Shown here one piece after another: positions 27,345 to 36,218 of a stretch of DNA of 64,000 bases. Both the position numbers and the translations under genes were made by a program. The first letter of the stretch is position 1. Every line of letters starts with the position of its first letter. The stretch is from a virus (taxonomy: Duplodnaviria > Heunggongvirae > Uroviricota > Caudoviricetes). The notes beneath the pieces were generated by a model. The model worked only from the letters and a program-made list of their open reading frames with translations, made no database searches and had not been told where the DNA came from. The DNA lies in IMG/VR virus record IMGVR_UViG_2698536484_000026; one strand, 5' to 3'.

Positions 27345-27827
27345 ATGAATTTTATCGCTACTGTAAACGCACCCGCACATGGCAATATCGCTGTAACGTT
27401 CTCTGACATTGAAAAACGAGTACTTGGTGCATGGCGCGACAATGAGACGGTAGAACTGTCAGCACAAGAAAAATGCATTATTGCACGCGACATCATTGGC
27501 AATCGTCGTTACTCGCGGGTATTTGAGAAAGCGTATGTGGTAAATTCTGGATTCGGAACGTTCGTCTTTCCGGTGCGCTCCGGGCGATTCTGCCAGTCCA
27601 AGCTGATTGAGTTCGCTACGCAGATTTCTGTCTGGATTAAAACTCAATCGTCGTTCAAATTTTCCGACGATGAAGCAGTATCGCAGGGGATGCGGATCGC
27701 CAACAATGCAATTAAATGCAAAAACATTACGTATACCGCTGGCGTTGATACATGGAAACTGTTTTGCGCTAACTTTATGCTGAATGTATACGCAAGCAAC
27801 CGCATCCACATCCTTGATGGCGTGTAA
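27345..27827 (+). CDS. Hypothetical protein
   Basis: Preceded by CAAGAAAACAATTTGTT motif; hairpin 27830-27858 follows. Confidence 0.4.
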   Translation: MNFIATVNAPAHGNIAVTFSDIEKRVLGAWRDNETVELSAQEKCIIARDIIGNRRYSRVFEKAYVVNSGFGTFVFPVRSGRFCQSKLIEFATQISVWIKTQSSFKFSDDEAVSQGMRIANNAIKCKNITYTAGVDTWKLFCANFMLNVYASNRIHILDGV

Positions 27828-27869
27828 CTGAGAAGAGGGCCAGAAACGGCCCTTTCTCTATAGCCACCA

Positions 27870-28040
27870 GCTGCCGCAGGGAAATTTTCAGAAGCGGCGA
27901 GGAACGTATTCATGAGCCGACGGGGAACGGCCAGGATTTTTTCGGGAAACGGCTGCATTTGCCTTTGTGTAGAAAAAAACATCGGGAAGCTGGTGGAATC
28001 CAACCAGCGGTTGTCGGACAGGTGAGCGGGGAAAATTATG
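27870..28040. repeat. Iteron-like direct repeat array B (GGGAAACGGC-type units)
   Basis: Six degenerate copies (cagggaaatttt, gaggaacg, cggggaacggccagg, cgggaaacggctgcat, cgggaagctgg, cggggaaaatt). Confidence 0.4.
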
Positions 28041-28434
28041 ATGACTTTCGTCACCTGAGACATCCAGATTTCTTTCGTAGCATAATCACATACGTGATTA
28101 AGTGGTGTGATTATGTGAAAAATCACGCGCACATAATACGCGAGCGGATACGGAACAAAACAAAATGCCGATCCGCGCCGACAAATAAACGCGGATCATA
28201 AAGCAAGACTAAAAGCCAATGATTAACTATGCGCTATAACGCGTTTTAAGCGCGTTAATGTGTTAAGTAATGGGTATGTACTGGCAAGGATATAAAAGCG
28301 CGTCTATGGCGTTATTTTGGCGCTTATTTTTATGTTGTTGGAGTGAGTTAAAGACAATAAAAAACGCGCCATCAATGGCGCGTTATTGTGGAAGTATTGG
28401 AAACGAAAAAAGCGCCCATAGTGGGCGCTCGATT

Positions 28435-28665
28435 TTATTTGTGTAAACTGATTTTAAATCCCATTTCTACGAACGCTTTTAACATTAAAAATATATCAGC
28501 GTCGTTCACGTCTGCTTTTTTTCGCTCCTGGTCGCTCAATAAGTCAATTTTGCGCGTCGTTTCATCTATAAGCTCGACTACGCGCCCAGCGTAACCAGCG
28601 ATCCCAGCGATGCGATTAACATAATATTCATTATGGACGTTAACGCCAGCGATAAGAACAAACAT
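28435..28665 (-). CDS. Hypothetical small protein (AT-rich cassette)
   Basis: Minus-strand ORF bounded by GCGCCCATAGTGGGCGC hairpins. Confidence 0.35.
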   Translation of the reverse strand: MFVLIAGVNVHNEYYVNRIAGIAGYAGRVVELIDETTRKIDLLSDQERKKADVNDADIFLMLKAFVEMGFKISLHK

Positions 28666-28685
28666 GATTAAGCTCCTTAAAAAAA

Positions 28686-28889
28686 TTAAATAGAATTTTG
28701 AAGTTTTCCGATTAATGCGCTTAAACGTAAGTATTCACGTTTGCGCTTGCAATCTCGCTTGCTGTTAAGCAAATCAGAAAACGTAAAATTTAATTGGTCG
28801 CGTTGCGCGATTAAATCATCGATTAATTCTAGTTTATAAGCGCGATACTTTGCGCGATATTCCGCGCGGATCTTGTCATAGCTGACCAT
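28686..28889 (-). CDS. Hypothetical small basic protein
   Basis: Minus-strand ORF in same cassette. Confidence 0.35.
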   Translation of the reverse strand: MVSYDKIRAEYRAKYRAYKLELIDDLIAQRDQLNFTFSDLLNSKRDCKRKREYLRLSALIGKLQNSI

Positions 28890-28938
28890 TTTTCAAAGCT
28901 CCTTTAAAGCGCCCATAGTGGGCGCTTGATTCCATTAA

Positions 28939-29589
28939 TTACGCTTTGAAAGCATCAGCTAAATAATTGTAGAAATCATTTTTAATGAAGCGATATTGCT
29001 GAGTACCAGCTTTTGCACTCCCAGCTCCTTTGACTTTTTCAACAAGTCCAAGACGTTCGCAAAGATTGATCAACTGGTTGGCTTGAGTATAGCCAGCGTC
29101 CAATTTAATTTCACACGCTTTTTTAGCTTCATTCATTAAATCGAAAACAGCGCCATTGGTGAACGTGTCGATCTCGTCGTTAATCATATCGATTAAAGCG
29201 AATACACGAGATCCTGACATATCAGCGACGGAATAAACACATTTACCAGCTTTAATGGATTTAACCAGATAAACCAGTTTTTCCAGTGAATAACTATTAG
29301 TCATTGCATCACGGAAAAATACTTCTGGCGCTTGTTTGCTTGCTTTAATCGCATAGTAGAAAACAGAGCATAATTTTTCGTCTTCTACTGCGTTTACGAC
29401 GTTGTTGATGAAGTAAGCAAGTTTAGTGGTCGCAGCTTGCATATTTGCTTTGTCTGCTTTAGTGTGCGTACCATTTTTATAATGTTCGTTATATGTTTGA
29501 GTTGCCAGATCTGCTTTTTCGCGCAGCTCGTCGGATACAATAGATGCAGCTTCAATGATGGACTTTTTAGAAATGATAATGTTAGCCAT
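28939..29589 (-). CDS. Hypothetical protein
   Basis: ATG at 29589 with AAGGA RBS 9 nt upstream. Confidence 0.45.
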   Translation of the reverse strand: MANIIISKKSIIEAASIVSDELREKADLATQTYNEHYKNGTHTKADKANMQAATTKLAYFINNVVNAVEDEKLCSVFYYAIKASKQAPEVFFRDAMTNSYSLEKLVYLVKSIKAGKCVYSVADMSGSRVFALIDMINDEIDTFTNGAVFDLMNEAKKACEIKLDAGYTQANQLINLCERLGLVEKVKGAGSAKAGTQQYRFIKNDFYNYLADAFKA

Positions 29590-29882
29590 GATAATATCCT
29601 TACGAAAAATTAAAATGAATTTATTTTTTACTGTCGTTAGCCAGCTCGCTTTCGACGAGTTCAATTATCGATACGTGAAAAAAGATTGCAAGTGTTTTTT
29701 TAAATTTTTTGCAGGGGTGAAAGCCCTAGAAATAAAAGAGAGAGCGTCGAAGGTGTTCCCTAAATAAATAATCAATTCGGGCCTTTAACCTTATATATTT
29801 ATACGGGGTGGCATTGAAAGAGTTTTAAATGAATGGCATGTAAAATAATAACCGGACTTAGCCGGTTATTACCCTTATAGAT

Positions 29883-30407
29883 TTAAAATGGAAGGATTCG
29901 TTCAACCCAATCGAAGAAAACAAGTATTTTTCTGCCGTCTTCTAACTTAAGAGTGACCTGGCAAGCATCAACGCCTCTTGACACCCCTTCAATTTCACGA
30001 CCGTCTGCCATGTAGACCCTTATAGATTGGTCGTTTTGATAAGCCTTGCGACATATCGCAAAAAAGTCACGGCGTGATGGCTGATTGTCAACATAGTCTG
30101 GATGTATTGTTAGCCTACCTTTGAACTCGCGAGCAATGCCATCGATTACACCTGATTCAATTGTGCTAATGCGCTCAAGTGGGAGTCTTATACGATTTTC
30201 TTTATCATATGGAAGCGGGCATAAATCTAGCTTATTGCGGGAAGGCATTGTCCCCTGAACGTACATGCAAAACACCTGACCGTCTTCAAGCGTGACTCTT
30301 ACAGGAATGTTGTTCTTCCGCCAGAACATAAGTATGTTTTCAGCATGTTCGTAGTCTCGCGGCCAGACTTCAGCCGGTATGCCGTAGGTGATGTCCGATG
30401 TTCTCAT
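29883..30407 (-). CDS. Hypothetical protein (last gene of three-gene AT-rich operon)
   Basis: Start overlaps stop of upstream gene by 4 nt. Confidence 0.45.
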   Translation of the reverse strand: MRTSDITYGIPAEVWPRDYEHAENILMFWRKNNIPVRVTLEDGQVFCMYVQGTMPSRNKLDLCPLPYDKENRIRLPLERISTIESGVIDGIAREFKGRLTIHPDYVDNQPSRRDFFAICRKAYQNDQSIRVYMADGREIEGVSRGVDACQVTLKLEDGRKILVFFDWVERILPF

Positions 30408-31018
30408 TCTGATACTCTTAGAGGTGTTTTCAGCAACCCAAATTTAAATTCTTTGTTACCAACGACAAAGAAGGGAACCTCAACATAGATTTTTTTATCG
30501 ACGGATTTAGAGTTCGCTGTTTTCTGTATGTCACGAACGATACGTTTTGAGGTATTTTCATCGATAAACAATACCTTTCCACTTGTATTCCCTTCAGCCT
30601 TGGCGTAAGTAACGATAGGGTCTTCATTGCCAACCCTAATGTTTACTTGGCAACCTGTTGTAGCCATTTCATCACAGTAAAGTGTGCCGTCTTGAACTTC
30701 TAAAACAATTCCAGATGGCTTCATGGCTTCGTCAGAGCTTACATTAACGTTTTCTGGTACAGCGGTCCCGTTAATTTGCAACCGTAATCTTTCTTTTCCT
30801 CCATTAAGTATTGTTTCTTCTGCGTTGTCTGAGAATCTGAACCAAACTGGCTGATTCAGACCTCGTGATTTGTATTCTACTACATCTTCGGAGGTAAACA
30901 TGCTGTACGTTTTTTGCATGTCAGAGGCGAAATCTGATAATGCGTTGGCGGAAAACGCCGGGAGGCATATACAAGCAAGGAGTAACGAAAGTTTCATTTT
31001 CATATCATGATAATCCAA
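30404..31018 (-). CDS. Secreted or lipoprotein-like protein of unknown function
   Basis: N-terminal MKMKLSLLLACICLPAFSANA signal peptide with possible lipobox LLAC. Confidence 0.5.
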   Translation of the reverse strand: MDYHDMKMKLSLLLACICLPAFSANALSDFASDMQKTYSMFTSEDVVEYKSRGLNQPVWFRFSDNAEETILNGGKERLRLQINGTAVPENVNVSSDEAMKPSGIVLEVQDGTLYCDEMATTGCQVNIRVGNEDPIVTYAKAEGNTSGKVLFIDENTSKRIVRDIQKTANSKSVDKKIYVEVPFFVVGNKEFKFGLLKTPLRVSE

Positions 31019-31507
31019 TTATTTAACATCACACTTTCTAAGTTTTTCTATTTGTTCTAATTTTTCATGATCATCATTTAGATTTCCTTCGACTATCTCC
31101 GTTTCAAGTTTGCTGATTAGCATGTTAAGTGCGTTGTAGTTATTGCATTTTACTTTGTAGGCGTAGTATGACCTTGTCCCTGGTTTTTGTACACCCATAT
31201 CATTAAAGTTAGAGCTTAAAGTATAACCTTCAAGTTCAACCCCTTTTATTGTTGGAAGAATTATATTTAATGGTTCTAATTTAAATGGGTAGATATAAAT
31301 ATGTGATATGAAGTACTCTTCTGAAGAGATTTTCTTCATGTCTTTTGTGATTGAAACTGAATATTTACGGTTCCGAGTGATATAAAATTTTGTGCATCTG
31401 TACAGCTCTAAGTTGAATAGATAATATTTGTCTTTAAAAAGAACATCTTTTCCATGTGATATTTTATGTCGTAAAGAGTTAATTATTTTGTTTATGGAAA
31501 TACTCAT
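31019..31507 (-). CDS. Hypothetical protein (K/I/N/Y-rich)
   Basis: Directly abuts downstream gene; very AT-rich coding sequence. Confidence 0.4.
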   Translation of the reverse strand: MSISINKIINSLRHKISHGKDVLFKDKYYLFNLELYRCTKFYITRNRKYSVSITKDMKKISSEEYFISHIYIYPFKLEPLNIILPTIKGVELEGYTLSSNFNDMGVQKPGTRSYYAYKVKCNNYNALNMLISKLETEIVEGNLNDDHEKLEQIEKLRKCDVK

Positions 31508-31652
31508 CTACAGTATCCGACCTTAGTTATCAATTGAAAAGCCTACAAATATCGTTCTGCCAATCAAGAAATTTTTTCAGCCGGAGGTGTGTACTTCAAA
31601 AAATGTGATGGATGTCACATGCAGGTGCTCTCATACACCTGCATGTAGACTA

Positions 31653-32252
31653 TTAATCATTCAATAATCTATATTTTCTTTTGATTAAATCTTCACCTTT
31701 TTTGGTGAACACAAAACCAAATTGCGATTTTTTGTTCAGCCTCAGTACTCTGTTATCCAACGCATCGGTTGATGGAATCAATGTTTGATCATCTATCCAA
31801 TTAAGTAGCGTAAGAAAGTTCAGCAGCCTCAACGTTGTTGTGCGAAGCTCTTTCGATATATTTTCAATGCTGGCAATTCGTCTTTCTTTTTTCTCAGGTG
31901 GTACAGATAATTGTTCTTGAGGTTTCGTGGATAGATAATCAATTTCGTTTGCTGCATCGAATGATATGTGTGGCGTAATTTTGCTAAAAAAGCCTTTCGC
32001 TGACTCACTTGATAATAAACCAGACCTATTCATATCGTTTGTTATTCTGTACAGGAGTGGACTGTGTTTCATTTCAGGATAACGTTGATAAAAGTTAAGC
32101 AATTCAAAAGCAGCATTAGCACCAACAATAAAATCAGAAGGATCGCTGACTTTCCAGAAAGAATGATTTTTCTTAGCGCCAGTGGTGTCAACAAATGATA
32201 ATTCTTTTAACCAACTCATGATGTGCTCCTTTCTAACAAGTGAGCACATCAT
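31653..32252 (-). CDS. Hypothetical protein
   Basis: Followed on minus strand by a perfect 10-bp inverted repeat CATGCAGGTG/CACCTGCATG. Confidence 0.45.
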   Translation of the reverse strand: MMCSLVRKEHIMSWLKELSFVDTTGAKKNHSFWKVSDPSDFIVGANAAFELLNFYQRYPEMKHSPLLYRITNDMNRSGLLSSESAKGFFSKITPHISFDAANEIDYLSTKPQEQLSVPPEKKERRIASIENISKELRTTTLRLLNFLTLLNWIDDQTLIPSTDALDNRVLRLNKKSQFGFVFTKKGEDLIKRKYRLLND

Positions 32253-32284
32253 AGAATTAGTAGATAGGGGGTAAATATAAAATG

Positions 32285-32563
32285 TTACGGCAACCTGCTC
32301 AGTATTTCCTCTAAATCTTTTTTTGTCATATTGGAGTTTTCATAGATGCGCATGATTTTCTCACGCGTCTTAGCGGAAACCCCAACGGCAGATGTGACTT
32401 TGTCAAATTCAGCCATAGTCATCGTCTCCAGAATGGCATTGATAACTTCAGCCTTAGACATCTTGATTTTTTTCTCTTTGAGTTTTATTTGGAATTTTCC
32501 AAGTTTTTCATTGGCCTTATCAGACAATGCCACTTGGCAATAAGTTGTTTTCTTTTCGCTCAT
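32285..32563 (-). CDS. Hypothetical small protein
   Basis: Coupled to helicase gene stop. Confidence 0.4.
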   Translation of the reverse strand: MSEKKTTYCQVALSDKANEKLGKFQIKLKEKKIKMSKAEVINAILETMTMAEFDKVTSAVGVSAKTREKIMRIYENSNMTKKDLEEILSRLP

Positions 32564-32565
32564 AA

Positions 32566-34125
32566 CTAATCTCGTTTCAGAACTCCAAAATCGAATGCGC
32601 CATCAATAGGCAATACACCTTCCGCAAAGCCAGGTGTGGTGTCGATGATGTGTTTTCGCTCATAAGAGTGAGACAACAGGTATTTGTTGCTAATGTCAAT
32701 GAAATCAGTGATAAAACACACGTTTGCCTGATTCTTCTTGGCTCGTAAGCCACGACCGACACGTTGTCTCATTTCAACTTCTGCTTTCCCACCACCAGCA
32801 AGAATGACCGCACCAACGCTTGGCACATCAACACCGACATCCAGAATAGTCGAGCCTATTAAAACATCTATTTCGCCAGACGCTAAACTGTTCAGCTTTG
32901 CTTGTCTTGTCGCCTGGTTCGATTCCCCATAGATAAAGTCAACTCTAAGGCCTGACTCCTTCATCATCTCCATCAGGATTTGCCCGTGGCGTTTAAGACG
33001 AACTAGAGTCATACAATTGAGAGAATGTTGCTTATAGAGCAATGCCTCGCGCACTATGGCCTCGTTACGTCCCAAATTATACACGATCCCCAACTGATAA
33101 GCCTTTTGGTAGGCGGTGCTCATACCAACTCTAAAATTGAGGTGTTTGTTGGCAAGTTCGGCCTTGATTCTGGCCTCGTCTGGCTTGTAGGCAACTTTAT
33201 GATAAAGGAAGTACGGCTTTGCCAGAATGCCTCGATCAATCAGGTACTTTTCTGTGACTTTAATTTCAATTCGCCCGGCCACCGCCATCAGACGCATGTT
33301 GGCTTCCGTCGAATCCTTCATGAACGGCGTGGCCGTAAGCGCCAGACGATAGTCTGCGTTCACACATAATCTGGCAATGTCATAGAAATTAGAACCTGAA
33401 GACTCATGCGCCTCTTCCAGAATAAGCAGAGACACACTTGAAAGGAAGCGTTTCACCAAGTCCCGACGTTTGAGGTGGTAGCTCTTCTTATCTGGAGTTG
33501 CATCGCGTGGTGGTTCTTCAAGGAAACTTGCCAGAGTTTGAACTGTAGCGACGTTGATATGTCGTGATACCTGGAACTCACCCGAGCCAATGACTCCAAC
33601 CTTTTGGTCTTTTAACCACGGTTCGCCATTTTTGGCGCGGTAGTCGATGGATCTCTGGAAGTTTTCGGCCATTTGAAACATCAGAACAGAGCGGGTTGTT
33701 AAAAATAATGTCATTCGACCGATACGTGCAGCTGCTTTACAGGCAACGTTAGATTTCCCGCCACCAGTAGCGATTTGCGCAATCATCATTCCCTCTCGAA
33801 CTAGTGTTTCCACAGTCTGATCCTGATACGCATAATCAGGATTGTATGGGAATGGGTTAACCGCCGGATTTGGTTTACCAAGCGCCGGGGCTTTGTCTTT
33901 GCGGATATGAACACATCTGATGCCCGCCTTGTTCAAGTTCGCCGCTACAGGCTTGGCAAAGCCAGCAGGGAACGAGTTTTTACTCCAGTTGAACATCGTG
34001 CTTGTGCCCTTCCAGTCGCCAGTCTCGACTTCGTAGCTCAACATTTGCTGCACCAGTTGCTTTACCTTGTCATCTGCGCCAGAAATAAGCGCATTTACTG
34101 CGTTAGATACAATCCGAACAGTCAT
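32566..34125 (-). CDS. Superfamily 2 DEAD/DEAH-box type helicase
   Basis: Walker A ATGGGKS, LILEEAH, LALTATP, RVGRGLR helicase motifs. Confidence 0.7.
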   Translation of the reverse strand: MTVRIVSNAVNALISGADDKVKQLVQQMLSYEVETGDWKGTSTMFNWSKNSFPAGFAKPVAANLNKAGIRCVHIRKDKAPALGKPNPAVNPFPYNPDYAYQDQTVETLVREGMMIAQIATGGGKSNVACKAAARIGRMTLFLTTRSVLMFQMAENFQRSIDYRAKNGEPWLKDQKVGVIGSGEFQVSRHINVATVQTLASFLEEPPRDATPDKKSYHLKRRDLVKRFLSSVSLLILEEAHESSGSNFYDIARLCVNADYRLALTATPFMKDSTEANMRLMAVAGRIEIKVTEKYLIDRGILAKPYFLYHKVAYKPDEARIKAELANKHLNFRVGMSTAYQKAYQLGIVYNLGRNEAIVREALLYKQHSLNCMTLVRLKRHGQILMEMMKESGLRVDFIYGESNQATRQAKLNSLASGEIDVLIGSTILDVGVDVPSVGAVILAGGGKAEVEMRQRVGRGLRAKKNQANVCFITDFIDISNKYLLSHSYERKHIIDTTPGFAEGVLPIDGAFDFGVLKRD

Positions 34126-34189
34126 AAACCTCTTTCCTTAGTGCCTTTTGTATGTTATTTGGCTATTATAATAAGTAAGTGATTACTTA

Positions 34190-34888
34190 GTGGATTGTAG
34201 CAATAAAATGGATGTAAAAATCACGATTTTGCAGGTTGATGTTGCCAACCTTCGCCCGAATACCTGGAACACCAATTCGGTTGGTGCGCAGAATTTTGAA
34301 AAACTGAAAGGTTCTATCGAAAAATTGGGCTTTTTTAAGCCAATTTTGGCTCGTGAACTTGAAGATGGATTTTTTGAAATCCTCGGCGGCGAACATCGCT
34401 GGCGTGCCGCTATTGAGCAAGGAATTTCAACGGTTCCGGTGCTTTCTGTGGGCAAAATTAGCGATGTCGTAGCTAAACAGATGTCACTGGTGGACAACGA
34501 GCGATACGGTGAAGACGACCAAATCGCATTGCAACGCTTCATTGAAGAAATTCAGTCAGAACTTGACTATCAACTGTCTGAAATCGCCCCGTATGACGAC
34601 GAAATCTCGATGGTTTTAGCAAAAGAGGCGGCAATCGACCTTGAAGCACTGGAGGCGTTGTCTCGTGGTAGTGATGAGCCTGTCGATACCGACAAACGAG
34701 AGAAAACCGAACGTGTGGGTGCGGAACATCAGACCATGCGCTTCAAAGTAACTTTCGATGCGTCAGATCGTGTTGCAGAAACCATAAAAAACATCATCAA
34801 AGAGCAGGCTATTAACACCGGTAATGAAATGGAGAACGCTGGTGAGGCTCTGGTGTGGCTGGTCGACTACTACAAGGAGCGTATGTAA
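34190..34888 (+). CDS. ParB N-terminal domain (ParB/Srx fold) protein
   Basis: FEILGGEHRWRAAIEQGISTVPVL. Confidence 0.6.
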   Translation: MDCSNKMDVKITILQVDVANLRPNTWNTNSVGAQNFEKLKGSIEKLGFFKPILARELEDGFFEILGGEHRWRAAIEQGISTVPVLSVGKISDVVAKQMSLVDNERYGEDDQIALQRFIEEIQSELDYQLSEIAPYDDEISMVLAKEAAIDLEALEALSRGSDEPVDTDKREKTERVGAEHQTMRFKVTFDASDRVAETIKNIIKEQAINTGNEMENAGEALVWLVDYYKERM

Positions 34889-35556
34889 TGACCAAAAAGT
34901 TTGAAATCGTATATCGCGACCCGGCAGATCTTATTCCCTATGAGATGAATGCCAAAAAGCATGATGAACAGCAGATCCGAGATCTGGCCGCAGCCATTAA
35001 AAAGCGCGGATTTGACCAGCCAATTACGGTCGATAAGAACGACGTAATTATTACTGGCCACGGCCGCCGTGAGGCTGCAATTTTTGCTGGACTTGAGCGC
35101 GTACCGGTTATTGTTCGCGATGATCTCAGTGATGACGAGGTTCGTGCGAAGCGCCTTGAAGATAACCGACTTGCCAGCATTGATTACGATGCAATTAAGC
35201 TACAGAAAGAGCTTGAGTCGCTTGTTCTGGACGATATCGAGGTTTTCGGCTTTGAAGAGCGTGAGTTGAATGTTCTCGTTGGCAGTATGACAGAAGAAAT
35301 GGACACCGACTCGCTAGTTATCGATCTTGGCGAAGAAACTAAACGACAGAAGGATGAACACACCGAGATCAGTCGTGAAGTTGCAGCGGAAGAAGTACGT
35401 GTTGTCGACGTATTGGGCTTTAAAACGCTCCCTGCTGGCTCTGCCATTGTTGTTGGTGATTTGCTTGCCCACATGGAAGAAATGACGGGAGAAAGCGGGG
35501 TAGACGCATTTGTGGCATATGCGGAGAAGATCTCTTCTGGGGAGATGGCTGCATGA
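34888..35556 (+). CDS. ParB N-terminal domain protein (second tandem copy)
   Basis: ITGHGRREAAIFAGLERVPVIV; ATG overlaps previous stop. Confidence 0.6.
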   Translation: MTKKFEIVYRDPADLIPYEMNAKKHDEQQIRDLAAAIKKRGFDQPITVDKNDVIITGHGRREAAIFAGLERVPVIVRDDLSDDEVRAKRLEDNRLASIDYDAIKLQKELESLVLDDIEVFGFEERELNVLVGSMTEEMDTDSLVIDLGEETKRQKDEHTEISREVAAEEVRVVDVLGFKTLPAGSAIVVGDLLAHMEEMTGESGVDAFVAYAEKISSGEMAA

Positions 35557-36218
35557 GCAAATACATCATCAACGTATCGTTTCAGACACGCGTAAATAAA
35601 ACCACGCGCACGTTGGAAATCGCTGAGTCGTTCGGGCTTGGCCTGGACGAAAAAGAGTGGACGCTTTACGACAATCTGGAGCTGGAAGTGAAGCAGGGCG
35701 ATGTGGTGTATATCACCGGCCAATCCGGTTCCGGCAAATCCGTTGTGCTGCGCGAGTTGCAACGACAGATGAAGGATGAAGGGCTGTCTGTAGCCTCCAT
35801 CGATGATTTTACCTTCGATAATGAGGTTAACGTCATCGATCAGTTGGGCAAAACGACCAGCGATGCGCTTGGGTTGTTATCTATGGCTGGTCTGAACGAT
35901 GCATATCTGTTTGTTCGCAAGCCTTCTGAAATGTCAGACGGTCAGAAATATCGTCTCAAGATTGCCAAACTGATTGAGTCAGGCGCTAAAGTGTGGGCTG
36001 CTGACGAGTTCGGTGCTGTTCTAGACCGTGTAACCGCTCAGGTTGTGGCATCTAACCTCCAGCGTGCCGCTCGAAAGGTTGGTGCGACGGTAATGGTGGC
36101 GACGACTCACGAAGACCTGAAGAACGCGCTGCGCCCGGATATGCAGATCACCAAGCACTACAAAGAACGCGTGAAGGTGGAATATCACAATGGTAGTCAT
36201 GATGAGGTCCATTCATGA
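35553..36218 (+). CDS. ABC-type ATPase domain protein
   Basis: Walker A GQSGSGKS, signature-like SDGQKYRLKIA, Walker B AADEF, H-loop TTHED. Confidence 0.55.
   Translation: MSKYIINVSFQTRVNKTTRTLEIAESFGLGLDEKEWTLYDNLELEVKQGDVVYITGQSGSGKSVVLRELQRQMKDEGLSVASIDDFTFDNEVNVIDQLGKTTSDALGLLSMAGLNDAYLFVRKPSEMSDGQKYRLKIAKLIESGAKVWAADEFGAVLDRVTAQVVASNLQRAARKVGATVMVATTHEDLKNALRPDMQITKHYKERVKVEYHNGSHDEVHS

What the first reader, a model, noticed from the sequence alone, without database searches (positions are those of the whole stretch)
29883..32563. AT-rich minus-strand accessory operon of five unknown genes
Five minus-strand genes following the helicase are markedly more AT-rich than the neighbouring modules and match no family I recognise. 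One encodes a periplasmic or lipoprotein-like protein, and a perfect 10-bp inverted repeat (31596-31625) splits the cluster. This fits a moron-type defence, anti-defence or superinfection-exclusion cassette.
Basis: inference. Interest (0 to 1): 0.65.

Follow-up and report, generated by a model that had tools for sequence, protein, structure and literature searches.

The report
Phage-plasmid cargo hotspot beside FljA-like repressor
The five genes are real and AT-rich, but only the middle three are swappable cargo of unknown function in an SSU5-type phage-plasmid of E. coli; the other two are conserved backbone genes, and the last one belongs to the FljA family, which blocks translation of flagellin mRNA.

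Summary
Five minus-strand ORFs lie at 29883-32563, at 37.8% GC against 46.5% for the window. The inverted repeat is real but sits about 20 nt from the stated position.

The window is an SSU5/pHCM2/pMT1-type siphovirus phage-plasmid. The same five-gene arrangement occurs on ~110-kb plasmids in 36 of 5426 complete E. coli genomes.

- **O5 (29883-30407)** is not unknown. It matches Pfam PF03614 (FljA, repressor of phase-1 flagellin) over its full length, E 5e-81. It has no flagellin gene beside it. In Enterobacterales it tracks the helicase about 1:1, including in non-motile Klebsiella and Y. pestis.
- **O1** is also a backbone gene.
- **O2-O4** fill a recombination hotspot. O3+O4 form a 1.14-kb replaceable cassette. 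O4 is periplasmic, not a lipoprotein. O3 is nearly an ORFan.

The cluster is two transcription units, not one operon. A hairpin conserved by compensatory changes follows O2. Downstream of that hairpin come a perfect CRP-type palindrome and a σ70-like promoter, kept in eight diverged elements, that would drive O3-O4-O5.

No known defence family matches. I read the region as a surface-modifying cargo module next to a core RNA-binding repressor whose target is unproven.

The parts
32285..32563 (-). O1: a 92-aa conserved backbone gene. Its start lies 2 nt after the helicase stop. Function unknown (phrog_1466).
   Evidence: It sits next to the helicase in SSU5, Cyrano, PhiR41_1, pMT1 and Klebsiella plasmids, and even in the distant clade-2 element L022. 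It evolves fast: 60-70% aa identity where the helicase keeps 92-95%.
32210..32261 (-). Hairpin that buries the Shine-Dalgarno sequence (AAGGAG) and the AUG at 32219 of O2. Probable translational gate.
   Evidence: Inverted-repeat arms at 32218-32228/32242-32252. Folds at -28.5 kcal/mol, z -6.7. Also present in the Citrobacter relative, with a compensatory G>C/C>G change, at -25.2 kcal/mol, z -8.6.
31653..32219 (-). O2: a 188-aa cytoplasmic protein of unknown function (phrog_13473). Semi-variable cargo; an alternative in-frame start lies at 32252.
   Evidence: Present in Cyrano, PhiR41_1, L017, L018, L011 and Klebsiella L021; absent from SSU5 and pMT1. dN/dS 0.11. The AlphaFold model was unusable, pLDDT 42.
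31614..31650 (-). Strong stem-loop immediately after the O2 stop codon. Together with the next small palindrome and a U-run it looks like a terminator, and it marks the end of the O1-O2 unit.
   Evidence: Perfect 11-bp arms at 31617-31627/31636-31646. Folds at -24.7 kcal/mol, z -4.6. Relatives have a hairpin at the same place with different arm sequences, i.e. compensatory change.
31604..31619 (.). CRP-type palindrome TGTGACATCCATCACA (minus strand). Presumed cAMP-CRP binding site.
   Evidence: It is the only TGTGA-N6-TCACA in the window, where 0.11 are expected. The half-sites are invariant and the 6-nt spacer is variable in eight elements, including Klebsiella L021 (TGTGATCTACATCACA) and clade-2 L019.
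31540..31567 (-). Predicted σ70 promoter for O3-O4-O5: -35 TTGATT (31562-31567), 16-nt spacer, -10 TAGGCT (31540-31545).
   Evidence: Both hexamers are invariant in five aligned relatives, and homology between different cassettes ends just after the -10. The palindrome-to-promoter spacing of 35-37 nt (32 in L011) holds in eight elements. No transcription start was measured.
31019..31507 (-). O3: a 162-aa cytoplasmic near-ORFan at 29% GC (phrog_25050). First gene of the replaceable cassette.
   Evidence: An exhaustive HMMER search of 1.84 billion representatives found only its own cluster and one marginal hit. Distant homologues sharing an FPF...SSNF motif sit at the same locus in PhiR41_1 (hhalign E 7e-7), Klebsiella L021 and L019. 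dN/dS 0.12-0.38.
30404..31003 (-). O4: a ~199-aa exported periplasmic protein (phrog_18942). Second cassette gene; its stop overlaps the O5 start (ATGA).
29883..30407 (-). O5: a 174-aa member of the FljA family (PF03614, 'repressor of phase-1 flagellin'), with no flagellin gene beside it. Core gene of the phage-plasmid family.
   Evidence: Pfam E 5.4e-81 over positions 1-170 of 170; weak Hfq and LSM hits in the C-terminal half. phrog_1444. 34-40% identical to flagellin-linked FljA proteins. Tracks the helicase ~1:1 in enterobacterial plasmids. ω 0.08-0.3. No flagellin gene in the window.
29842..29884 (-). Motif AAATCTATAAGGGT overlapping the O5 stop codon, followed by a terminator hairpin (arms 29846-29855/29862-29871) and a U-run. 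End of the O3-O4-O5 unit.
   Evidence: -15.3 kcal/mol, z -3.8. The 47-nt block is invariant in seven elements whose adjacent coding sequence is only ~65% identical.

Best explanation
The region is the helicase-proximal variable segment of an SSU5/pHCM2/pMT1-type phage-plasmid. It consists of two conserved backbone genes that flank a recombination hotspot.

Unit 1 is helicase-O1-O2. O2 translation is gated by a conserved hairpin over its ribosome-binding site and AUG. The unit ends at a stem-loop that relatives conserve in structure but not in sequence.

Unit 2 is O3-O4-O5. It starts at a conserved σ70-type promoter that has a CRP-type palindrome about 45 bp upstream of its -35 element. It ends at an invariant terminator. 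O4 and O5 overlap by ATGA and are probably translationally coupled.

O5 belongs to the FljA family. Its characterised relatives prevent translation of fliC (flagellin) mRNA. Here it has no flagellin partner and is a core gene of the element. I infer that it acts in the lysogen as an RNA-binding translational repressor. In flagellated hosts such as E. coli it most plausibly shuts off host flagellin. If the CRP site works, that would happen under the same cAMP-CRP conditions that switch on flagellar genes. It may also have, or may instead have, a target on the element itself.

O3+O4 (cytoplasmic near-ORFan plus periplasmic disulfide-bonded β-sandwich protein), with O2, are interchangeable cargo. 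Every allele of the hotspot carries an exported protein. I therefore infer an envelope-acting lysogenic-conversion role, such as receptor masking or superinfection exclusion.

Shown: the gene structure, family membership, hotspot boundaries, conservation of the cis elements, and purifying selection. Inferred: promoter activity, CRP control, the RNA target of O5, and any phenotype of O2-O4.
For: Element identity:
- The region is 96.5% identical over 100% of its length to Escherichia phage CMS-2020a, and related to Cyrano, PhiR41_1 and SSU5.
- The window also encodes ParA, large terminase, portal, tape-measure and tail-fibre proteins.
- The same arrangement occurs in 22 PLSDB plasmids and in 36 of 5426 complete E. 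coli genomes, always on plasmids.

Hotspot:
- Homology breaks at 30395 and 31539.
- Different cargo occupies the same site in SSU5, pMT1, Klebsiella, Cyrano and PhiR41_1.
- Each allele carries an exported protein or lipoprotein.

O5:
- PF03614 at E 5e-81, with motifs shared with flagellin-linked FljA.
- The four flagellin-linked relatives examined (three shown by Pfam, the Senftenberg plasmid by its annotation) lie directly downstream of a flagellin gene. The phage-plasmid clade never does.
- Genus counts match the helicase: Klebsiella 345/346, Escherichia 229/228, Enterobacter 92/92, Yersinia 62/62.
- ω is 0.08-0.3.
- FljA proteins prevent fliC mRNA translation (PMC2652032).

Cis elements:
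- A unique CRP core.
- Half-sites, spacing, -35 and -10 are conserved in eight diverged elements, while the adjacent hairpin changes by compensation.
- Terminator after O5.

Coding status of the cargo: dN/dS 0.11-0.38.
Against: O5 target:
- O5 is only 34-40% identical to FljA proteins that sit next to flagellin genes.
- It is maintained under purifying selection in elements of K. pneumoniae, which is non-flagellate (established knowledge). A flagellin-only role cannot explain that conservation.
- No fliC-leader-like sequence occurs in the window.

Promoter and CRP:
- The CRP palindrome centre falls at about -78 to -80 from the predicted start, between the canonical class I positions.
- In RNA the palindrome could form a small second hairpin followed by a U-run, so it could be part of a terminator.
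- No transcription data were available.

Cargo function:
- O2-O4 have no informative homologues.
- The O2 model failed.
- No PADLOC match.
- The exclusion role is inferred only from cellular location and variability.
Confidence: 0.55

Rival explanations
1. O5 is a post-transcriptional regulator of the phage-plasmid's own genes, for example the neighbouring conserved gene O6 or lytic/lysogenic functions. It is not a host-flagellin repressor. The chromosomal fljA genes would then be a domesticated offshoot of the same RNA-binding family.
For: - O5 is a core gene that tracks the helicase ~1:1 across Enterobacterales, including non-motile Klebsiella and Y. pestis.
- It is under purifying selection in Klebsiella-borne alleles.
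- It keeps a syntenic position even in a second clade that is only ~35% identical.
- An invariant 47-nt block and a 14-nt motif, AAATMTATAAGGKT, occur three times around its 3' end. 0.04 copies are expected, and the motif is kept in most relatives.
- The O5-O6 intergenic region is more conserved than the flanking coding sequence.
Against: - No binding data exist.
- The conserved motifs could equally be DNA operators for another regulator, or recombination boundaries.
- pMT1 entered Y. pestis recently, so its conservation there says little.
- The family's only characterised activity is on fliC mRNA.
- The two roles are not mutually exclusive.
Confidence: 0.35
2. One reading: the five genes form one moron-type operon that encodes an anti-phage defence, anti-defence or superinfection-exclusion system.
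For: - Low GC.
- O2-O4 are present or absent among close relatives.
- The locus always carries an exported protein.
- O2-O4 have no housekeeping homology.
Against: - O1 and O5 are backbone genes.
- O5 is an FljA-family protein.
- A conserved hairpin plus a promoter splits the cluster.
- There are no PADLOC hits for these proteins or for the alternative cargo.
- The only defence-model hits are generic SF2-helicase similarities of the neighbouring helicase.
Confidence: 0.15
3. The TGTGA-N6-TCACA palindrome is not a CRP site. It is either the second stem of a tandem-hairpin intrinsic terminator for O1-O2, or the operator of an element-encoded regulator such as O2.
For: - In RNA it folds into a small hairpin followed by a U-run in the window, L017 and L018.
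- Its distance from the predicted promoter is not a canonical CRP class I or class II position.
- In seven of the eight elements it lies directly downstream of an O2-type gene. L019 is the exception.
Against: - The arms are invariant in sequence while the loop varies. The neighbouring true hairpin instead varies in sequence with compensation. This contrast points to sequence-specific protein recognition.
- In L019 the palindrome is present without an O2 gene upstream.
- L011 lacks the U-run.
- Several copies approach the full 22-bp CRP consensus, for example AAATGTGAT on one side in the window and TGTGATCTACATCACA in L021.
Confidence: 0.25

Closest known systems
[quoted passage not shown] Examples: the fljBA operon of Salmonella, fljA(z66) of the linear plasmid pBSSB1, and the E. 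coli flk-type islets.
   Same: - Full-length family match at E 5e-81.
- Shared invariant motifs: DI(T/S)YG..AE.WPR(D/E)Y, P.R.DFF.IC, DGR...G..GV.AC and FDWV.RI.
- The same ~175-aa size.
   Different: - Only 34-40% identity.
- It does not lie downstream of a flagellin gene, and there is no Hin-type invertase or invertible promoter.
- It is a syntenic core gene of a phage-plasmid family, also present in non-flagellate hosts.
- It is co-transcribed with variable cargo from a promoter that carries a CRP-type site.
Variable accessory-gene hotspots (morons, lysogenic-conversion loci) of temperate phages and phage-plasmids. Examples: T5 Llp and phi80/N15 Cor lipoproteins, which mask receptors, and T4 Imm/Sp.
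   Same: - AT-rich genes.
- Genes present or absent among close relatives.
- Sharp homology breakpoints.
- An own promoter.
- An exported or lipoprotein product in every allele.
   Different: - No sequence or confident structural similarity to any characterised exclusion protein.
- The cassette has no terminator of its own and shares its transcript with the core gene O5.
- A cytoplasmic partner, the O3 family, recurs alongside the exported protein.
SSU5 / pHCM2 / pMT1 / Cyrano phage-plasmids (the annotated genes SSU5_121-124, CYRAN_114-118 and the Y_RS21270-21285 block of pMT1).
   Same: The same backbone order: ParB-ParB, then helicase, O1, [cargo], FljA-like, a 216-aa protein and a small protein. 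The same terminator block follows the FljA-like gene.
   Different: In SSU5 and pMT1 the cargo is a single 140-aa lipoprotein, with no internal promoter or CRP palindrome. The window carries O2 plus the promoter module plus O3-O4.
Invasion-associated protein B (IalB; PDB 3dtd), a periplasmic β-sandwich protein.
   Different: - 10% identity.
- No Pfam hit.
- Low-confidence model (mean pLDDT 58.8).
- Many generic Ig-like sandwiches score nearly as well.

Membership tests
FljA / Flag1_repress (PF03614) | Full-length match to the family profile above the curated threshold | tested here: met
   270.9 bits against a cut-off of 24, E 5.4e-81, profile positions 1-170 of 170.
FljA / Flag1_repress (PF03614) | Conserved sequence motifs shared with flagellin-linked FljA proteins | tested here: met
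   49 invariant columns in the alignment with the Senftenberg plasmid FljA. The motifs also hold across ten sequences.
FljA as a flagellar phase-variation repressor | Gene lies immediately downstream of a second flagellin gene (fljB-fljA operon) | tested here: not met
   The upstream genes are O4 and O3. No flagellin gene occurs in the window or in ten phage-plasmid loci. The four flagellin-linked relatives examined have one directly upstream.
FljA as a flagellar phase-variation repressor | Expression from a Hin-type invertible promoter | tested here: not met
   None of the cluster proteins has a resolvase or invertase domain. The C. freundii MAG locus does have a resolvase next to flagellin-fljA.
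FljA as a flagellar phase-variation repressor | Binds the fliC mRNA leader and blocks its translation | not testable with these tools
   Only the literature on relatives is available (PMC2652032). No fliC-leader-like sequence occurs in the window, which bears only on a possible target inside the element.
Known anti-phage defence systems (PADLOC-DB 2.0) | At least one protein matches a defence-system model | tested here: not met
   No significant hit for O1-O5 or O6-O8, nor for eight alternative cargo proteins. The helicase matches PbeA and other SF2 models only generically.
Moron / accessory cassette | Present or absent among close relatives, with sharp homology breakpoints | tested here: met
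   For O3-O4 the breaks are at 30395 and 31539. For O2-O4 against SSU5 they are at 30395 and 32553.
Moron / accessory cassette | Own promoter and own terminator flanking the cassette | tested here: inconclusive
   A conserved promoter-like module lies upstream of O3. The only terminator lies after the core gene O5. There are no transcript data.
Moron / accessory cassette | Base composition unlike the backbone | tested here: met
   O2 35%, O3 29% and O4 41% GC, against 46.5% for the window and 47% for the helicase.
Bacterial lipoprotein (O4) | Conserved lipobox cysteine at the end of the signal peptide | tested here: not met
   The cysteine in LLAC is absent from homologues P0008, P0010, P0013 and P0014. 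The conserved site is FSANA|LSD.
Sec-exported periplasmic protein (O4) | N-terminal signal peptide with an AXA cleavage site, conserved among homologues | tested here: met
   Judged by inspecting alignment A1; no dedicated predictor was run. Two invariant cysteines fit a periplasmic disulfide bond.
cAMP-CRP binding site | TGTGA-N6-TCACA core, conserved in orthologous regions | tested here: met
   It is a unique perfect core, where 0.11 are expected. The half-sites are kept with a variable spacer in eight elements, one of which has a single mismatch.
cAMP-CRP binding site | Centred at a canonical activating position (-41.5, -61.5, -71.5, -82.5 ...) | tested here: inconclusive
   The centre is about -78.5 in the window and about -80.5 in L019, measured from a start that is only predicted.
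Sm/Hfq-like RNA-binding fold (O5) | Significant profile or structural match to Sm/Hfq | tested here: inconclusive
   Pfam Hfq E 1.2e-3 and LSM E 0.03, both below threshold. hhalign against E. coli Hfq gives E 0.29, and the N-terminal half against the C-terminal half gives E 0.0067. The PDB profile search lists archaeal Hfq-like proteins at E ~1.
IalB-like fold (O4) | Confident structural superposition | tested here: inconclusive

The most novel reading that the evidence does not exclude
The FljA family is primarily a phage-plasmid RNA-binding regulator, possibly built from tandem Sm-like domains. It would control the element's own mRNAs through the conserved AAATCTATAAGGGT/hairpin elements. 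The enterobacterial flagellar phase-variation repressor would then be a domesticated copy. In the element, this regulator is wired by a CRP-dependent promoter to a shuffling two-part cargo module (an O3-family cytoplasmic protein plus a variable exported protein) that remodels the cell envelope of lysogens.
Probability: 0.25. Interest if true: 0.7.

Novelty: new variant of a known kind. Interest (0 to 1): 0.45.

Why it matters
SSU5/pHCM2/pMT1-type phage-plasmids are common in clinical E. coli, Klebsiella, Salmonella and Y. pestis; about 830 of 72,556 PLSDB plasmids carry this FljA-like gene. Nothing in the searched literature addresses what the gene does there.

If it silences host flagellin, carrying the element would make lysogens non-motile. 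That could also protect them from flagellum-dependent phages and reduce recognition of flagellin by the host immune system, and it might be controlled by carbon source.

If it acts on the element's own mRNAs, it would reveal a new layer of phage-plasmid regulation and a probable evolutionary origin for the classic phase-variation repressor.

The adjacent hotspot is a defined place to look for new envelope-acting exclusion functions. All of these ideas can be tested with simple genetics.

Tried and rejected
**Searches and models that gave nothing**
- PADLOC returned nothing for the cluster or for alternative cargo.
- NCBIfam returned nothing for O1-O5.
- PDB sequence searches of O2, O3, O4 and O5 found no homologue.
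- The AlphaFold model of O2 from five sequences had pLDDT 42 and was unusable, so no fold search was run.
- The afdb50 fold library was unavailable.
- The exhaustive HMMER search for O3 gave one marginal extra hit. That hit did prove useful, because its gene sits next to another FljA-like gene.
- Rfam found only sub-threshold chance hits across 27500-34500.

**Tests that were weak or negative**
- I searched the window for a fliC-leader-like target. Only chance-level matches of 9-12 nt appeared.
- I tested whether O5 is a tandem Sm/Hfq domain protein. The signals were weak.

**Literature**
- Searches for fljA with SSU5, phage-plasmid, pMT1 or pHCM2, and for PF03614, found no relevant study.
- The primary FljA mechanism papers are not held in the library.

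**Rejected readings**
- O4 as a lipoprotein: the lipobox cysteine is not conserved.
- A single five-gene operon.
- A 10-bp repeat at exactly 31596-31625.
- The helicase's PbeA and DndB-type hits as evidence of a defence system: these are generic SF2 similarity in a universally conserved backbone gene.


Full report
**1. What the window is**

The finding lies in a temperate siphovirus that also lives as a plasmid.
- Region 28400-34200 is 96.5% identical over its full length to Escherichia phage CMS-2020a. It also matches phages Cyrano, PhiR41_1 and, at 80% over half its length, Salmonella phage SSU5.
- Elsewhere the window encodes a ParA-like partition protein, thymidylate synthase, a DNA methyltransferase, large terminase, portal, tape-measure protein and central tail fibre.
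- The segment 29700-32600 recurs at 94-99% identity and full coverage in 22 PLSDB plasmids. It recurs at at least 80% coverage in 36 of 5426 complete E. coli genomes, always on ~110-kb plasmids and never on a chromosome. One carrier is a plasmid of O104:H4 strain 2009EL-2050.
- Public annotation calls the genes 'hypothetical protein' (four times) plus 'transcriptional regulator' or 'repressor of phase-1 flagellin'.

**2. Checking the observation**

Five minus-strand ORFs fill 29883-32563 directly after a 519-aa SF2 helicase. I call them O1 to O5:
- O1: 32285-32563, 92 aa.
- O2: 31653-32219, 188 aa. An in-frame alternative start lies at 32252.
- O3: 31019-31507, 162 aa.
- O4: 30404-31003, about 199 aa.
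- O5: 29883-30407, 174 aa.

The region is AT-rich: 37.8% GC against 46.5% for the window, and only 1.3% of equal-length windows are lower. O3 holds the GC minimum of the whole window. The low GC is uneven, and O5 at 45% is close to backbone.

The stated 'perfect 10-bp inverted repeat at 31596-31625' is not exactly there.
- Those coordinates contain a palindrome with 6-bp arms, ATGTGA-N6-TCACAT.
- A perfect 11-bp inverted repeat lies at 31617-31627/31636-31646 and overlaps their right end.

All five ORFs are real genes. Two diverged relatives keep the same five-gene order and ORF lengths: L017 from a sequencing-run assembly and L018 from Citrobacter freundii. dN/dS is 0.11 for O2, 0.12-0.38 for O3, 0.15 for O4 and 0.27 for O5.

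**3. O5 is a member of the FljA family**

O5 matches Pfam PF03614, 'repressor of phase-1 flagellin', over the whole profile at E 5.4e-81. It falls in phrog_1444. The claim that none of the five matches a known family is therefore wrong.

Characterised FljA proteins stop translation of fliC mRNA while the alternative flagellin is expressed (PMC2652032; the primary papers were not available).

I compared genomic contexts.
- The four more distant family members I retrieved (34-40% identical) all lie immediately downstream of a flagellin gene. They come from Atlantibacter and Franconibacter chromosomes, a C. freundii MAG, and a Salmonella Senftenberg linear plasmid. One of them also has a Hin-like resolvase upstream.
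- O5 and its close relatives never have a flagellin neighbour. No flagellin gene occurs in the 64-kb window or in ten phage-plasmid loci.

**4. O5 and O1 are backbone genes, not cargo**

A translated search of PLSDB finds the FljA-like protein in 835 plasmids and the helicase in 1002. Within Enterobacterales the counts by genus (FljA-like / helicase) match almost one to one:

| Genus | FljA-like | Helicase |
|---|---|---|
| Klebsiella | 345 | 346 |
| Escherichia | 229 | 228 |
| Enterobacter | 92 | 92 |
| Yersinia | 62 | 62 |
| Cronobacter | 10 | 10 |

- The helicase-only plasmids are mostly distant Acinetobacter and Aeromonas relatives.
- Twelve phage genomes of this type in the phage collection carry a near-full-length FljA-like gene.
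- The gene keeps the same position (helicase, O1, [cargo], FljA-like, 216-aa protein) in SSU5, Y. pestis pMT1 and K. pneumoniae plasmids. This holds even in a second clade whose FljA-like protein is only ~35% identical.
- It is under purifying selection, ω 0.08-0.3, including in comparisons with Klebsiella-borne alleles.
- It nevertheless diverges much faster than the helicase: 64-76% against 90-95% amino-acid identity.

K. pneumoniae is non-flagellate and Y. pestis is non-motile (established knowledge). Repression of host flagellin cannot be the only reason the gene is kept.

Weak signals hint that each half of the protein is Sm-like, which would suit an RNA binder, but none is significant:
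- Pfam Hfq at E 1e-3 and LSM at E 0.03.
- The two halves aligned to each other in the Sm1 register at E 0.007.
- Archaeal Hfq-like proteins among the top PDB profile hits at E ~1.

**5. O2-O4 fill a recombination hotspot**

Homology with Cyrano and PhiR41_1 stops at 30395, four codons into O5, and resumes at 31539, 32 nt upstream of the O3 start. O3+O4 is therefore a 1.14-kb replaceable cassette. Against SSU5 the whole O2-O4 stretch is replaced.

Other elements carry different cargo at this site:
- A single 140-145-aa lipoprotein in SSU5, pMT1 and Klebsiella.
- O2 plus a small ORF plus a 266-aa lipoprotein on the opposite strand in Cyrano.
- O2 plus a 191-aa protein, a 117-aa protein and the same lipoprotein in PhiR41_1.
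- O2-like plus a 204-aa and a 118-aa protein in Klebsiella L021.
- O2-like plus O4-like in L011.
- An O3-like gene alone, with a divergently transcribed 208-aa protein, in L019.

Two regularities emerge.
- Every allele contains at least one exported protein, either with a lipobox or with a signal peptide.
- O3 is not quite an orphan. An exhaustive profile search of 1.84 billion representatives found only its own cluster and one marginal hit. That hit, the PhiR41_1 191-aa protein (hhalign probability 92%, E 7e-7) and the Klebsiella 204-aa protein all share an FPF...SSNF motif, and all sit at this same locus upstream of an FljA-like gene.

So a cytoplasmic O3-family protein paired with a variable exported protein is a recurring module.

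What can be said about the individual cargo proteins:
- **O2.** It could not be modelled; pLDDT was 42.
- **Defence models.** None of these proteins, and none of the alternative cargo, matches a PADLOC defence model.

**6. The cluster is not one operon**

Between O2 and O3 lie three elements in order.
- **A strong hairpin directly after the O2 stop.** It folds at -24.7 kcal/mol, z -4.6. Relatives have a hairpin at the same place with different arm sequences: GCAGGTG/CACCTGC, GTGGGCG/CGCCCAC and GTGCTG/CAGCAC. It is therefore conserved as a structure.
- **The palindrome TGTGA-N6-TCACA.** It is the only perfect CRP core in the window, where 0.11 are expected. Here the half-sites are invariant and the six-base spacer varies. 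This is the opposite pattern to the hairpin and is what sequence-specific protein binding would produce.
- **A σ70-like promoter 36 nt further on.** Its -35 is TTGATT, the spacer is 16 nt and the -10 is TAGGCT. Both hexamers are invariant, and homology between different cassettes ends just past the -10.

The palindrome-gap-promoter layout is kept in eight elements, including Klebsiella L021 (TGTGATCTACATCACA) and the distant L019. The gap is 35-37 nt, or 32 nt in L011.

I infer that O1-O2 are transcribed with the helicase and stop at the hairpin, and that O3-O4-O5 are transcribed from this promoter under cAMP-CRP influence. There are caveats.
- The palindrome centre is about -78 to -80 from the predicted start, which is not a textbook class I position.
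- In RNA the palindrome could form a small second terminator stem.
- There are no transcript data.

The O4 stop and O5 start overlap (ATGA), which suggests translational coupling. A terminator hairpin with a U-run follows O5.

**7. How it most likely works**

Shown:
- The architecture, the family membership of O5, the hotspot boundaries, the conserved cis elements, and selection on all five genes.

Inferred:
- O5 is an RNA-binding translational repressor made in the lysogen.
- In flagellated hosts such as E. coli the simplest target is host fliC mRNA. Flagellar genes are switched on through cAMP-CRP activation of flhDC (established knowledge). A CRP-dependent promoter would therefore produce the repressor just when flagellin would otherwise be made.
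- The benefit could be escape from flagellum-dependent phages, lower cost of carriage, or reduced immune recognition.
- Because the gene is equally conserved in Klebsiella elements, I give substantial weight (0.35) to the rival that its main target is an mRNA of the element itself.
- O3-O4, and probably O2, are interchangeable cargo acting at or through the envelope. Receptor masking or superinfection exclusion is the most economical guess, but it rests only on protein location and variability.

**8. Comparison with what is known, and novelty**

The element family, the gene order and the 'flagellin repressor' annotation are already in public records. The SSU5 record itself uses that label.

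What I could not find in the searchable literature is any study or discussion of this gene in SSU5-type phage-plasmids. New here:
- The FljA-like gene is a universal, syntenic core gene that has no flagellin partner.
- It is present and under selection in non-flagellate hosts.
- In one widespread lineage it is wired to a conserved module carrying a CRP-type site and to a shuffling cargo module.

I class this as a new variant of a known kind, not a new system. I found no positive evidence for the defence or anti-defence reading that motivated the original score.

**9. Verdict**

- Observation: partly confirmed. The ORFs, the AT-richness and the exported protein are right. The repeat coordinates are off, and the 'no known family' claim is wrong.
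- Interpretation: partly supported. O2-O4 are accessory cargo. O1 and O5 are core genes. The cluster is two transcription units. There is no defence signature.
- Interest: 0.45. The cargo hotspot itself is ordinary for a temperate phage. The orphan, core FljA-family repressor is an unexpected lead that is cheap to test.

Noticed in passing
window 29787-30029 (motif copies at 30016-30029, 29871-29884, 29787-29800, minus strand): A 14-nt motif, AAAT(C/A)TATAAGG(G/T)T, occurs three times within 245 nt around the 3' end of O5. It occurs nowhere else in the 64 kb, where 0.04 copies are expected. The two intergenic copies, 84-92 nt apart, are kept in most SSU5-like loci, and one copy is kept in the distant clade. 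It could be an operator on DNA or RNA.
   Followed up: partly
window 29590-29884 (intergenic region between O5 and the next gene): This non-coding stretch is more conserved than the genes around it. It contains a 47-nt block that is invariant in seven elements, plus further invariant blocks, while the adjacent O5 coding sequence is only ~65% identical. It includes a promoter-like TTGCAA-16-GATAAT at 29691-29664 for the downstream 216-aa gene.
   Followed up: partly
window 32210-32261: A hairpin of -28.5 kcal/mol (z -6.7) buries the ribosome-binding site and AUG of O2. Its 5' arm carries a second in-frame AUG. It is conserved in the Citrobacter relative with a compensatory base-pair change. This suggests regulated translation of O2.
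   Followed up: partly
window 28435-29589: Three further minus-strand genes follow the cluster: a 216-aa protein (phrog_1513), a 67-aa protein and a 76-aa protein. All are conserved across the family. The 67-aa protein carries a PHROG/GenBank label of 'MIT family metal ion transporter' that looks implausible for so small a soluble-looking protein.
   Followed up: no
window 28126-28430: A dense group of terminator-like hairpins lies on both strands, including a bidirectional one at 28410-28430. The region as a whole has 13 such sites against 5.7 expected. The group marks where the minus-strand block meets plus-strand genes.
   Followed up: no
locus L011 (JAEWTL010000044.1): This contig is labelled as a Bacillota MAG. 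It carries a typical enterobacterial SSU5-like segment, with a helicase clearly homologous to the window's and an FljA-like protein 64% identical, so it is probably mis-binned. It has O2-like and O4-like genes but no O3, with ~250 nt of apparently non-coding sequence in place of O3.
   Followed up: no
proteins P0024-P0028 (homologues of O2): Several plasmids carry O2 variants of 114-129 aa that share the N-terminal half and then diverge into a different short tail. This is consistent with frameshifted or decaying copies of O2.
   Followed up: no
loci L001 5862-5931 (Cyrano): In Cyrano the conserved promoter module is followed by an unannotated 32-codon ORF with a strong ribosome-binding site and then a bidirectional terminator. 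The promoter therefore seems to be retained even where the large cassette is absent.
   Followed up: no
window 32566-34125 and 34190-36218: The helicase scores against PADLOC PbeA models (E 6e-23) and the NCBIfam Dnd restriction model (E 3e-16), and against other SF2 models more weakly. It is transcribed divergently from two ParB-like genes and an ABC-type ATPase. The helicase is conserved across this plasmid family. The defence-model hits look like generic SF2 similarity.
   Followed up: no
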